DNA from: Chrysomallon squamiferum
Lineage: Eukaryota; Animalia; Mollusca
Length of the DNA stretch: 64,000 nt
NCBI GenBank assembly: GCA_012295275.1
Contig: CM022665.1
Span: 21,700,001-21,764,000, forward strand
Direction of reading: 5' to 3'
Part shown: piece after piece, positions 16,052-63,245 of the stretch
Layout of the letters: each line of letters opens with the position of its first letter
Numbering within the stretch: the first letter of the stretch is position 1
Position numbers and translations under genes: made by a program
Notes under the pieces: model-generated
The model's input: the letters and a program-made list of their open reading frames with translations, nothing else
Database searches by the model: none
Told to the model about the DNA's origin: nothing

Positions 16052-19000
16052 TTAGAAGTCAGGATAGGTGTGTACATTTGTTGAAGATTCCTCCATGACA
16101 AAGGCATGGTTAATGTATGGGTTCACTGTCTTGACGTGTATTGGCACTGGGTACCTTTTTAATCTTTTCTCTGGCGGCATGGGGAAGATTTCTCTTCTTT
16201 TTCTCTGACCTGGGTTGGGAGAGACAAACTGCATGCTTTGTGGTTCATACCTTGGTTTTGGAGACTGATAATGGTTCTTTGGTCTGTGGGTTTCTCTTGG
16301 AGATATGAACTTTATGTGTTCCTCCTGGTTTTGTCTGCTGGGAGAACAACTCTTGTCTGTTGTTCTCATCTGAAGAATTTCATTGACACGATTTTCATAC
16401 ATGTTTTGTCTAGATCTGTTAAGTAAATTAATATAATTATTGATATTATTATCATCATAATCACAGTTACCATTATTGATATTATAATCATCACTGTTAT
16501 TGTTACTAATACTGTTATCATCATAAGCATTAATATTAATATAATCATGACATTCAGCACAGTAGTTTGGATCATCTAACTGGAAATAATCAAAGTTAGC
16601 ATGCAAGTGAGATATTTTTGTCCATTCTTTTTAACATATCATTGTTTACTATTTTGCCTTGCCCATTACAATATACCTTGTGACTGAACCTCATTAGTGC
16701 CTCTTTGCCAGACTTCTTTTTAATTGTAATTTTGTTTCCTATGTAGTGAATTATATAACATTCAGAAAACCCTTATTTTATATGCCCATTTAAACCAGAA
16801 TGTCTGCTACATTTTATCTTAAGTATATTATTATTTTACAGTAATATTTATTTAGCTATCTTGTGTAATCATGTTTATAATTTATATTTTTACAGTTCTT
16901 AAATGTTTACCTAATTAATGTCAGAAAATGCTAAATACACAAAAACCTAAATAGAGCATATGCAGACGTACATGGGCTGTTTAGAAGCTGTATTATATAA
17001 TTAGGGAAGTTCCATTATGTTATAAACTAAGAAAAACTGGGATTAACAAACTCAAAATGGGCATTAAAGTTGCAAAGTAAATTCAGAAAGACTGTCTGCA
17101 GAGGTGTTTACTGAACGCTCACGTGATGGTTATATAAGTAACGGCACGCATTTTGAACAAGATCTCTTTGATGAACAACAAAACAACTCAAACTTTAACC
17201 CGTCTCAGAGTGGGAGTGACCTTCGGACTAAACGACAGTAGACATAGACTCGACAACACTGTGAGTGACAAGTGCGGCACATGCCATAAACTGGACAACG
17301 TCAGACACTATATTTTCTATTGCACCAAATATGACAAGGACAGACGCAAACTAAACACAGCTTTAACAAACATCAAAGTCAGATTTACTCCAGCTGACAT
17401 TTTCAACCCCCCCAAACACCTAAAAAAACAAGTAGACAACCTGATAATGCGATTCGTGGAAGCAACAAAAGTCAAAATATAAACACAGACAATTTCACAA
17501 AACACTACATAAAATAAACACATCCGTATCCAACCCCAGAACCAACTGGCAACCTCCCCTCGACGTCTGAACTCCAAAAACTAACAACAATGCGATGATA
17601 ACAACAACAAAAAGATGCCCGACACGATGTCACGACGAGCCTTTTTTTTTTTTTTTTTTTTAAATAATAGTAGAAACTAAGTAAATAAATAAACAAATAA
17701 ATAAATAAATAAAACCCCTTAAACAGTGCCCAATGCATGTATATATATATGTATATATGTGTGTGTGTGTGTATGTATATGTATGTATATATATATATAT
17801 ATCCACATATGTGTACCTGTGTGTATGTGTATGGGTCTGTATATATGTATCTCTACTGCACCCTTTTGGATCTTAGTAATTAAAAACCACTCAAAGGTTT
17901 ATTCCAAATTGCCCACTTCAAATGCACCTGCACCCTTCCCCTCCCATTCCTTTTCCCCCTTTTCCCTTCCCCTCTCCTGGCGATCCCAGAGATCGGATCC
18001 GGGATAGGCGTGCCCGAACCTTGAATTGGACCCAGGGCACGTAAAAAGAGTTCTCCATCCATCCATCTCTTTGATCGGTGCCAGCTTCAGACATTGTCTG
18101 AGGACCACTCAGGCAATGTTAAATATGTTTTAATGTTTTGCATATGTAACATAATGCTGAGTGATTGAAGATAGCTATATCTATTACTGTTGAATTTTTA
18201 TTGTGTTATTCTATGACATGTTCTTACACTTAAAAACTAAGATAATGTATATTAATAATTAAAAGATTAGTTAGAAGGATCAGGTAACCAACTGGGTTTA
18301 ATTAGTTTAGTTTTATCTATCAATACTATTTGTTTTTATAGTGTATTGTCACATTGTACGATTTAACTATATGTTACCCTTGAGGGATAATTTGGATAAA
18401 ATATATATATATATAAAACAATTACCCATATACAATTTTTGTTATTGTTCTTTAATGGATACACAATATTCATTTAGTAGTTTAAGCTGTCTCAGATCAT
18501 TAACACCTTGTCACATGATGCTAATATAGTCTGCTACCCTTTAGACAGGATGAGCCAAATTTTAGGTATTAATACCACCCAGACTAGTCACCACAACACT
18601 TGTTTAAATACTGTCACCTGACATTTCACATTTTCACTACTACAACAAACTAGTTTTAAAGAAATATTTGTGTTAGATTGTTTTAAGTGATTTTCACATA
18701 CCGTCTTCATACTTTTACAATTACTGTGTTCAAAACTTTTTGTAGTGATTATGATAGCAAAATTAAGAATAAATCTGCCTTAAGAATAAAACAAGTGAAA
18801 ATGGTATACCTCCTCATATAAATAATGAAACACCCAGTGAGAGCCACAACAAACAGGAGAAGAGGAACAGAAATTGCTGTTACAATCTTTGGATTAGACA
18901 AAGCTACTGAAGAAGAAAAAGAGGTAATAAATAAATAAAAATAATTAAGTAATAATAATAATTACAAATATAATAATAATAATAATAGTAATAATAACAT

Positions 19001-61583: not shown

Positions 61584-63245
61584 CTACTGGTCGTCTGCTT
61601 TGGAAACATTTTCTTCTGATTCGAAAGCAAGGTTGTCATGGCTCCCTGAGGACTCCTCATCAACGTCCTCAAACAATCTCAGTGTGGGAATCTCTAAACT
61701 TTTTTTGTATCTCAGTTCCGGCACCTCCGACCCTATTTCTGGACGAACGTCGAACGCCACGTGCTTTTCTGACGATTCCTCTGGTTTCGATCTCTTCGAC
61801 CTTGGCGTAAAAGGCGAGGACTGCAAATATTTCCGGTAGATGGCACCGGGTGACATGATTTTTTTGTGCTCCTCAAATAATTCTTTGGCAGACATTCTTC
61901 GACTAGAAGGAGTGGACTCTTCTGTTGATACGTTGGCTGATCTGTAATAATAAGACTGATAATAAGAAGTAGTTGCAATGGTAGTAGTTGTAGTAGAGGT
62001 AGTACTAGTAGTAGTAGTAGAAGTACTTGTATTAGTAGTAGAAATTGCAATACAGATAGAAGTAGTTGTAATAGGAGTAGCATTAGAAGACGTAGTGGAA
62101 GTATTAGTAGTAATAGTAGTAATAGAAATACTGATAATAGTAATAGTAGTGGCTGAATAGGTAGTAGTAGTAGAACTAGTAGTAGAAGTATTAGTAGTAA
62201 AACTAGTAATAGAAGTGCTGGTAGTAGTAGTAATAGCAACAGTAGAGATAGTAGTATTAGAAGTAGTAGTAATGTCTGCCAAAGAAGTAACAGTGGTAGT
62301 ATTAGAAGTAGTAGAATTAGGGTAGTAATAATAGAAGTGGTTGTTGTAGTTGTAGTAGGAGTAGTAATGGTTATAGTAATAGTAGTAATGGAAATACCAA
62401 GAACAACAGCAGCAGCAACTAAAGCAACAACAACAACAACAATAATAATAATAATAATAATAATGATAATAACAAAAATAAAAACAACAACAACAATAAT
62501 AATCAGAATAATAACAAGAGGGAGAAGAAGACAAAGCATTACGACGTACTTTTTACAAAGACATATACAAATGGAAACAATTATCACGCATGCTATAACA
62601 CAGGCAGCAACAATGACCGCCACAATGACTGAGTTCATTTCAGATTCTGAAAAAAAAAATAATAATAATAATACAAATACTAAAAAAAATGTTTTAAATA
62701 CAAACAGTCTATTCATGTGTATGTGTGTATATGTATTCATGTATATATGTATGTGTGCATGTGTTAGGATTTGAATATCCTCTGTGTTCTGTACATCAGA
62801 TTAGACTCTGCACATAGACAATCTCTGGGAACCGCACTGGCCCAGGAGGACATGTATGCATGAATGTATGTATGTATGTATGTATGTATGTACGTATGTA
62901 TGTATGTAGTCTTGTATTTATGTATGTGTACATCGATGAATGAACGGATGTAAATATGCACCTGTGGGGCGGATGTGTGTGTGTGTGTGTGTGTTGTGTT
63001 TGTGTGTGTGTGTGTGTGTGTGTATGTGTGTGAGTGTTGTTTTAATTTACGTTTATGGTGCTTTGTACACGCAGTAACGGGACAGTCCTCTGGAAAATAA
63101 TAATTAATCGCTTTTCCAGGGCAGACCTCCACCGTGTCGTCACTGTGATTATTTGTCACACACTTTCTGCTTATTATTACAGTTCTTTTGCATGCACTCG
63201 AGCAGGGTCCTTGCAGCTTAGTCCAAGGCGTCCAGTAGCCATCAG
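61584..63245 (-). CDS. Receptor paralog E (5' part beyond window): TSP1-like + TM + cytoplasmic tail
   Basis: Exons 63245-63051 (DGYWTPW..CSSAC..RKC), 62646-62550 (97-nt TM exon, VIVAVIVAACVIACVIIVSICICLCKK), 61941-61584 (SANVSTEESTPSSRRMS...DDQ*). Phases 1,1,2 as in the other paralogs. Confidence 0.83.
62765..62852 (-). mobile_element. 3' fragment of the tRNA-derived SINE seen at 46015-46217
   Basis: taggatttgaatatcctctgt...attagactctgca...gcactggcccaggaggac aligns by eye with 46026-46100. Confidence 0.65.

What the first reader, a model, noticed from the sequence alone, without database searches (positions are those of the whole stretch)
16052..63245. Tandem cluster of modular Ig + TSP1 single-pass receptors with variable domain number (candidate undescribed receptor family)
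Seen: four same-strand genes share one blueprint. A, C and D each have a 52-nt signal-peptide coding segment ending in phase 1. All have symmetric phase 1-1 Ig and TSP1 exons and a TM exon ending in phase 2 (97 nt in A, D and E; 91 nt in C). Domain counts differ (A 1 Ig+7 TSP1, C 1+1, D 2+1, E at least 1 TSP1) and the paralogs look highly diverged by eye. Established: Ig+TSP1+TM occurs in UNC5, but UNC5 has ZU5/UPA/death domains, which are absent here. Inference: a lineage-specific, rapidly diversifying cell-surface family built by exon shuffling. This is the architecture typical of invertebrate immune/allorecognition or gamete-recognition loci.
Basis: partly seen in the sequence, partly recalled or inferred. 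Interest (0 to 1): 0.85.

Follow-up and report, generated by a model that had tools for sequence, protein, structure and literature searches.

The report
Antibody-tipped thrombospondin-stalk receptor gene cluster
Four neighbouring genes, likely from a deep-sea vent snail, encode membrane proteins with one to seven thrombospondin-type repeats (three of them tipped by an antibody-like domain); this unnamed family likely serves cell-surface recognition, and the one gene checked is spliced as predicted and varies little between individuals.

Summary
Four minus-strand genes contain exactly 4 Ig and 10 TSP1-type (TSR) exons, all phase 1-1. An RNA contig carries gene A's whole 738-aa model. C, D and E have no RNA test; D's TSR exon needs a GC donor; E's start lies outside the window. 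The Ig is a V-set fold with four conserved cysteines. The TSRs keep six cysteines but miss Pfam. The family is not confined to this genome: the vent snail Gigantopelta aegis has an uncharacterised gene with the same blueprint and a similar signal peptide, and it uses both modules in other combinations, which supports exon shuffling. The allorecognition reading is not supported for gene A: RNA alleles differ by 0.2-1.0%, and 8 of 11 listed coding variants are silent. It is not UNC5, FREP or a true CEACAM. Best reading: an old, paralog-diversified set of surface recognition or adhesion receptors, with ligand and tissue untested. I found no description in print. Moderate interest.

The parts
26457..26508 (-). 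Gene A signal-peptide coding segment (52 nt, phase 1; acceptor 15 nt upstream of ATG)
   Evidence: joint to the Ig exon in RNA contig
25072..25455 (-). Gene A four-cysteine V-set Ig exon (384 nt)
24489..24683 (-). Gene A TSR 1
23774..23956 (-). Gene A TSR 2 (folded: TSR-like model)
23165..23347 (-). Gene A TSR 3
22265..22435 (-). Gene A TSR 4
21439..21621 (-). Gene A TSR 5
20730..20903 (-). Gene A TSR 6
19778..20008 (-). Gene A TSR 7 with a 16-aa extension bearing two extra cysteines
18810..18906 (-). Gene A transmembrane exon (97 nt, ends phase 2)
16052..16415 (-). Gene A cytoplasmic-tail exon (six tyrosines, N-x-x-F motif)
49232..49283 (-). Gene C signal-peptide coding segment (52 nt)
   Evidence: no RNA test
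48459..48842 (-). Gene C four-cysteine V-set Ig exon
   Evidence: no RNA test
47752..47940 (-). Gene C TSR exon (189 nt)
   Evidence: no RNA test
46403..46493 (-). Gene C transmembrane exon (91 nt)
   Evidence: no RNA test
45027..45642 (-). Gene C serine-rich cytoplasmic-tail exon
   Evidence: no RNA test
59405..59456 (-). Gene D signal-peptide coding segment (52 nt)
   Evidence: no RNA test
58290..58661 (-). Gene D Ig exon 1 (folded: V-set, pLDDT 96.7)
57683..58045 (-). Gene D Ig exon 2
55891..56079 (-). Gene D TSR exon (189 nt; inferred non-canonical GC donor, otherwise reads into a stop)
   Evidence: no RNA test
55488..55584 (-). Gene D transmembrane exon (97 nt)
54320..54515 (-). Gene D cytoplasmic-tail exon
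63051..63245 (-). Gene E TSR exon (5' part of the gene lies beyond the window)
62550..62646 (-). Gene E transmembrane exon (97 nt)
61584..61941 (-). Gene E cytoplasmic-tail exon (N-x-x-F motif near the end)

Best explanation
These four genes encode single-pass membrane proteins built from thrombospondin-type repeats and (in A, C, D) a four-cysteine V-type Ig tip, and they likely act as a fixed set of cell-surface recognition or adhesion receptors that differ between paralogs rather than between alleles. Shown: exon structure, splicing of gene A, the V-set and TSR folds (predicted models), a same-blueprint gene in G. aegis, reuse of both modules in other architectures, and low allelic variation in gene A. 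Inferred: the distal Ig binds a ligand on another cell or a microbe, as N-terminal V domains do in CEACAM-, Siglec- or Alr-type receptors (recalled). The one to seven TSRs would act as a stalk that sets the reach of the tip, and in A (net +23) could also bind polyanionic glycans. The unrelated, low-complexity tails would couple to adaptors through short motifs; the N-x-x-F motif in A, C and E resembles NPxY/F-type internalisation signals (recalled). The family likely arose once by joining a phase 1-1 Ig exon to phase 1-1 TSR exons of the type found in coadhesin-like genes, before this species split from G. aegis, and then duplicated in tandem with gain of Ig or TSR exons.
For: Models and phases. 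RNA contig with gene A's joints. V-set model pLDDT 96.7, best Z 15.3 to scFv and 15.1 to CD8-alpha. Three cysteines invariant and the fourth at 90% or more in 98 rows. TSR profile hits thrombospondin-1 at 2.4e-7, and the top 9 rows of the wide fold search are TSR domains, with weak Z 3.6-4.5. G. aegis LOC121372633 (P0055) is SP-Ig-TSR-TM-tail; its signal peptide scores highest of 31 (78; an unnamed relative 76; next 56); its Ig groups with A and D at 84/84. Window TSRs are up to 58% identical to those of G. aegis VWA+7 TSR+TM LOC121373200. Alleles differ by 0.23-0.96%; 8 of 11 listed coding variants are silent, pN/pS about 0.10. N-x-[AVGL]-F occurs in 3 of 4 window tails and 7 of 22 homolog tails (no null computed). 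Circumstantial: PMC7895826 lists a CEACAM5-like family as expanded (130 genes in G. aegis), and 5 coadhesin-like and 4 CEACAM5-like rows among genes high in the symbiont-housing gland; I could not map those rows to these genes.
Against: No ligand, tissue or binding data. Only 1 of 4 genes is RNA-tested. The Ig tree is poorly resolved: no starred clade holds any window domain, C falls outside the A/D/P0055 group in the free tree, and both 'window only' and 'window + P0055' clades are merely not rejected (p-AU 0.62 each). Gene D's tail lacks the N-x-x-F motif, and 15 of 22 homolog tails lack it. D may be damaged or secreted (GC donor). The allele estimate rests on four samples of one study that were found by similarity, laid at 90% likeness, with 29 variant rows across the region not displayed, so very divergent alleles would be missed.
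Confidence: 0.5

Rival explanations
1. Developmental cell-cell adhesion or guidance molecules (UNC5- or Dpr/DIP-like), binding self proteins or heparan sulfate in nerve or epithelium, with no role toward microbes.
For: Ig followed by TSR is the UNC5 ectodomain order; P0055 matches UNC5B/D weakly across the Ig-TSR junction (E 0.002-0.003). The deep Ig profile ranks RIG-5, Dpr and DIP among its weak PDB hits. Purifying selection in gene A. Basic TSR array.
Against: No ZU5, UPA or death domain in any of 4 tails. All named true homologs are from one snail species, whereas guidance receptors are usually conserved across animals (recalled). Tails are unrelated to each other (best z 2.3 of 15 pairs).
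Confidence: 0.2
2. Gamete-recognition or sperm-surface proteins.
For: Language-model neighbours of the P0055 ectodomain include TMEM81, SPACA1 and FAM187A clusters, but all score under 0.9 and are leads only. High divergence between species (best Ig identity 49%).
Against: Those scores are within the chance range stated by the tool. Gene A is present in all four RNA samples by share of words, tissues unknown. Low pN/pS in A.
Confidence: 0.12
3. A hyperpolymorphic allorecognition or resistance locus like Hydractinia Alr or Biomphalaria PTC2/GRC.
For: A cluster of single-pass genes with divergent paralogs and N-terminal V-like domains, the layout described for PTC2 and Alr (passages of PMC7494358 and PMC8282982).
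Against: PTC2 haplotypes differ by 3.3% in alignable DNA and 3-85% in protein, and Alr2 has 183 protein alleles in one population. Gene A differs by 0.23-0.96% in four samples, and its Ig exon by 1 of 384 and 2 of 230 nt.
Confidence: 0.08
4. Only gene A is functional; C, D and E are decaying duplicates, or D makes a secreted or TSR-skipped product.
For: D's TSR exon lacks an in-frame GT donor and reads into a stop. A broken xylanase gene lies in the same cluster. No RNA test of C, D or E.
Against: All exons of C, D and E are open, keep all cysteines and phases, and end in long open tails although paralogs are only 34-43% identical in the Ig, which decay would not preserve. D's GC sits at the same exon length as C's GT.
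Confidence: 0.1

Closest known systems
Gigantopelta aegis LOC121372633 (XP_041355003, uncharacterised)
   Same: Signal peptide, one four-cysteine Ig, one TSR of the same subtype, TM and long tail with N-P-A-F near the end; most similar signal peptide of 31.
   Different: Single Ig and TSR, about 31-38% identical in the Ig exons; tail not alignable; orthology to any one window gene not shown.
G. aegis 'CEACAM5-like' family (orthogroup OG0000013 in PMC7895826) and 'draper/MEGF-like' genes
   Same: NCBI CEACAM-like and draper-like proteins of G. aegis carry the same four-cysteine V-type Ig.
   Different: They continue with I-set/C2 Ig, FN3 or EGF domains, not TSRs. I did not verify that these proteins or the window genes belong to that orthogroup.
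Coadhesin-like G. aegis LOC121373200 (VWA + 7 TSR + TM)
   Same: Same TSR subtype (two Trp, six Cys, single Arg), same repeat count as gene A, single TM.
   Different: The tip is a VWA domain rather than an Ig; its repeats are homogenised, whereas gene A's are 26-53% identical to each other.
UNC5 netrin receptors
   Same: Ig then TSP1 then TM; weak match over the Ig-TSR junction.
   Different: No ZU5, UPA or death domain; variable domain counts; four-cysteine V-type Ig.
Biomphalaria PTC2/GRC clusters and Hydractinia Alr1/Alr2
   Same: Clusters of divergent single-pass genes; Alr has an N-terminal Ig-like specificity domain and single-exon domains.
   Different: Their defining allelic hyperdiversity is not seen in gene A; PTC2 genes have no known domains besides the TM.

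Membership tests
IgSF V-set domain | Beta-sandwich with A-B-C-C'-C''-D-E-F-G strands and B-F disulfide | tested here: met
   Model pLDDT 96.7; Z 15.3 (rmsd 1.9, 111 aligned) to scFv and 15.1 (rmsd 1.6, 102 aligned) to CD8-alpha; atlas neighbours V-set at 0.92-0.95.
IgSF V-set domain | C-strand tryptophan (recalled) | tested here: not met
   Phenylalanine at 90% or more in 98 rows; an extra invariant cysteine pair lies on the C''- and D-strand region.
Thrombospondin type 1 repeat | Six cysteines aligned with TSP-1 and W-x-x-W | tested here: met
   10 of 10 exons.
Thrombospondin type 1 repeat | Third Trp, R-x-R ladder and C-S-x-T-C-G-type motif (recalled) | tested here: not met
   0 of 10 have the third Trp, R-x-R-x-C or C-x-x-S/T-C-x-x-G; 5 of 10 keep C-x-x-S/T-C; 0 of 10 hit Pfam TSP_1.
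Thrombospondin type 1 repeat | Three-stranded TSR fold | tested here: inconclusive
   Model pLDDT 85.9; top 9 rows are TSR domains but Z is only 3.6-4.5 and Foldseek E is 0.06 or worse.
UNC5 | Cytoplasmic ZU5-UPA-death domains | tested here: not met
   No such Pfam hit in 4 of 4 tails of 64-204 aa.
UNC5 | Fixed 2 Ig + 2 TSP1 ectodomain (recalled) | tested here: not met
   1+7, 1+1, 2+1.
FREP / VIgL | Secreted; 1-2 IgSF domains plus C-terminal fibrinogen domain (PMC7588048 passage) | tested here: not met
   TM present and no fibrinogen domain in the models. Homology of the Ig to FREP IgSF domains was not compared directly; no FREP was among the named hits.
Vertebrate CEACAM | N domain followed by C2-type Ig domains (recalled) | tested here: not met
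   No constant-type Ig exons in the window; TSRs instead.
Allorecognition / PTC-type polymorphic locus | Extreme allelic divergence | tested here: not met
   Gene A only: 0.23-0.96% nt, 3 of 11 listed variants non-synonymous; four samples, 90% likeness floor; C, D, E untested.
Allorecognition / PTC-type polymorphic locus | Genetic control of fusion/rejection or parasite resistance | not testable with these tools
   Needs crosses or association data.

The most novel reading that the evidence does not exclude
The four-cysteine V-type Ig is an unnamed recognition module, invisible to Pfam cut-offs, that vent peltospirid snails have multiplied into more than a hundred divergent copies and bolted onto different stalks (TSR, EGF, Ig chains, FN3). 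The Ig+TSR receptors here would be part of a germline-encoded, antibody-like repertoire that recognises and internalises chemosynthetic symbionts.
Probability: 0.15. Interest if true: 0.75.

Novelty: new variant of a known kind. Interest (0 to 1): 0.38.

Why it matters
It defines a concrete, RNA-supported, unannotated receptor family and a profile for a V-type Ig module that standard Pfam cut-offs miss (218 representatives at 50% clustering, a few of them generic Ig hits). How vent snails pick and keep their bacterial symbionts is open, and this gives named candidate genes to test. As architecture it is what exon shuffling of phase 1-1 modules routinely produces in invertebrates (recalled), so without a ligand or tissue it would not greatly surprise a specialist.

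Tried and rejected
No whole genome was held, so copy number and synteny could not be searched. Pfam on single exons gave no hit above a curated cut-off for any of 19 pieces. A homodimer prediction for gene A's Ig gave no answer (score 0.01, alignment not used); it is no evidence either way. The TSR tree was unresolved (1 of 22 inner branches starred). A single origin of every Ig that lies next to a TSR in G. aegis and the window was neither shown nor rejected (log-likelihood 21.5 lower, p-AU 0.078). An apparent grouping of G. aegis P0131 with gene D in quick trees was set aside: it is a long branch with no TSR and was left out of the careful tree. The word-based search with the 98-row Ig profile found only one brittle-star multi-Ig protein at 39% coverage, weak evidence on range. 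Earlier scan notes: nothing by place, sequence or words. Literature searches with no paper; one search gave only PMC7895826; some searches gave listings, of which I read passages of six papers. Supplement files 1 and 3 of PMC7895826 held none of the terms searched.
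Full report
Observation. The window is AT-rich, microsatellite-rich animal DNA; no whole genome was held. I rebuilt the four minus-strand genes by coordinates. Gene A is signal peptide, Ig, seven TSP1-type repeats (TSRs), TM and a 121-aa tail (738 aa). Gene C is 1 Ig + 1 TSR (443 aa), gene D 2 Ig + 1 TSR (422 aa), and gene E shows one TSR, TM and tail, with its 5' part beyond the window. 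A, C and D also share an acceptor just upstream of the ATG (15, 22 and 30 nt). A six-frame profile search finds these 4 Ig and 10 TSR exons and nothing else of note. One correction: D's TSR exon has no usable in-frame GT donor and needs a GC donor, at the same 189-nt length as C's exon; otherwise it reads into a stop.

Expression. Five runs hold the gene A region, four of them RNA from one study. One 2432-nt contig of run X1 shows 9 of the 10 coding joints in the displayed table, and its coordinates leave exactly 732 nt for the four exons around the tenth. Runs X2 and X3 confirm 2 and 4 of the displayed joints. Genes C, D and E could not be tested on RNA.

The Ig domain. Single exons stay below Pfam cut-offs: 3 of 4 give weak Ig hits, the best at E 0.003. 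A profile of the four exons found 218 representatives at E 0.001 or better, of which 150 were listed. Every named true homolog is from the peltospirid vent snail Gigantopelta aegis: 10 of 10, 4 of 4, 10 of 10. Of 10 more, 2 were G. aegis, 7 unnamed ENA records and 1 a generic Ig-repeat protein. The best identity to a window domain is 49%, so the window is likely from a related but different snail; I did not determine the species. Across 98 rows three cysteines are invariant and the fourth, with F, Q, T, K, Y and W positions, is at 90% or more. The model of D's first Ig (pLDDT 96.7) is a V-set fold, Z about 15 to antibody variable domains and CD8-alpha. It has Phe where V domains usually have the C-strand Trp (recalled) and an extra cysteine pair, predicted to form a second disulfide.

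The TSRs. None of 10 hits Pfam TSP_1, but their profile matches thrombospondin-1 at 2.4e-7 with six aligned cysteines. A model of A's second repeat ranks TSR domains in the top 9 rows, with weak scores. All 10 keep W-x-x-W and one Arg; none has the third Trp or the R-x-R ladder; 5 of 10 keep C-x-x-S/T-C. A's array carries 66 K+R against 43 D+E. The only word-search hit was G. aegis LOC121373200, a coadhesin-like VWA + 7 TSR + TM protein with the same subtype, up to 58% identical per repeat.

Family history. Among the 150 listed Ig hits, 3 also carry this TSR type: LOC121372633 (P0055; SP-Ig-TSR-TM-tail), LOC121385901 (Ig-TSR) and LOC121388832 (Ig, EGF, six TSR, TM). Others put the same Ig before or after I-set/C2 Ig, FN3 or EGF domains. 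P0055's first 17 residues score highest of 31 against the window's signal peptides, and its Ig groups with A and D at 84/84, below the tool's mark. A clade of all four window domains with P0055 is not rejected, nor is a window-only clade (p-AU 0.62 each; 45 of 171 domains used, P0131 and one long P0020 domain left out). So exon shuffling is supported by direct reuse of both modules, and the blueprint likely predates the split from G. aegis, but orthology is unresolved. Paralog Ig identity is 34-43% and no DNA-level match between paralogous exons appeared. The tails do not align (best z 2.3 among 15 pairs).

Polymorphism. In the displayed contig pieces gene A differs from the window at 5 of 1455, 6 of 950, 12 of 1250 and 1 of 429 nt in the four samples. 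Of 11 displayed coding variants 8 are silent, a rough pN/pS of 0.10; 29 variant rows across the region were not displayed. For comparison, passages of PMC7494358 give 3.3% DNA and 3-85% protein divergence among PTC2 alleles, and passages of PMC8282982 give 183 Alr2 protein alleles in one population. The runs were found by similarity and laid at 90% likeness, so very divergent alleles could be missed, and only gene A was measured.

Mechanism. I commit to a set of fixed-specificity surface recognition or adhesion receptors: V-type tip for ligand, TSR stalk of variable height, tails with short motifs. The N-x-x-F motif in A, C and E, and in 7 of 22 homolog tails (no null computed), resembles internalisation signals (recalled). 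All of this is inference, at about even odds. Circumstantial support for a microbial ligand comes from PMC7895826 (passages and supplement rows seen): a CEACAM5-like orthogroup with 130 genes in G. aegis, 101 in Chrysomallon squamiferum, 103 in Bathymodiolus platifrons and 59 in Lottia gigantea, and 5 coadhesin-like and 4 CEACAM5-like rows among genes high in the oesophageal gland. Those labels are automatic and I could not tie them to these genes. Passages of PMC11871041 mention Ig-domain proteins in sclerite proteomes, so a structural role is also possible. Rivals are developmental adhesion (0.2), gamete recognition (0.12), partial decay of C, D and E (0.1) and allorecognition (0.08).

Comparison and novelty. 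It is not UNC5 (no ZU5/UPA/death domain; only a weak junction match), not a FREP (defining fibrinogen domain absent; passages of PMC7588048) and not a vertebrate-type CEACAM. It is laid out like snail single-pass clusters (passages of PMC13712769) but lacks their allelic diversity in the gene tested. Searches for a description of this Ig+TSR family returned nothing; the library lacks most subscription journals and I saw only part of the supplements. Verdict: a real, undescribed variant of a known kind, interest 0.38.

Noticed in passing
window 27961-43636 (+): Remnant of a GH10 xylanase gene with a CBM4/9-like start between genes A and C; one exon matches beta-xylanase structures at 2.6e-11. 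The exon near 41500-41700 shifts frame twice, and I found no exons for the first half of the barrel: pseudogene or assembly errors.
   Followed up: partly
window about 28700-39300: About ten tandem copies of a roughly 1-kb unit, each holding a 40/42-bp (82-bp dimer) minisatellite, inside the first intron of the xylanase remnant.
   Followed up: partly
window 55876-55891 (-): Gene D's TSR exon ends at a GC where gene C has GT; skipping this symmetric exon or reading through to the stop would give a TSR-less membrane form or a secreted form.
   Followed up: partly
window 2900-13660 (+): A multi-exon gene upstream of the cluster whose frames resemble the DUF4139/F37C4.5-like family (label recalled; one exon gave no Pfam hit).
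   Followed up: no
window 24962-25058, 45973-46102, 62722-62852: A short element about 70-80% alike sits in one intron each of genes A, C and E; likely a dispersed repeat.
   Followed up: no
window 28571-28640 (+) and 61100-61160 (-): A shared motif of about 45 nt near the xylanase remnant and between genes D and E; unexplained.
   Followed up: no
proteins P0002, P0014, P0015, P0020, P0035, P0096 (G. aegis where named): The four-cysteine Ig occurs in one to four copies at N-terminal, internal or membrane-proximal positions with EGF, I-set, C2, FN3 or TSR partners; many of these genes lie on one 53.4-Mb G. aegis scaffold.
   Followed up: partly
window 26930-27060 (-): About 80 nt of gene A's RNA contig lie upstream of the signal-peptide exon, and RNA depth in this bin suggests a non-coding first exon with an upstream ATG at 26994; the joint was not displayed.
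   Followed up: partly
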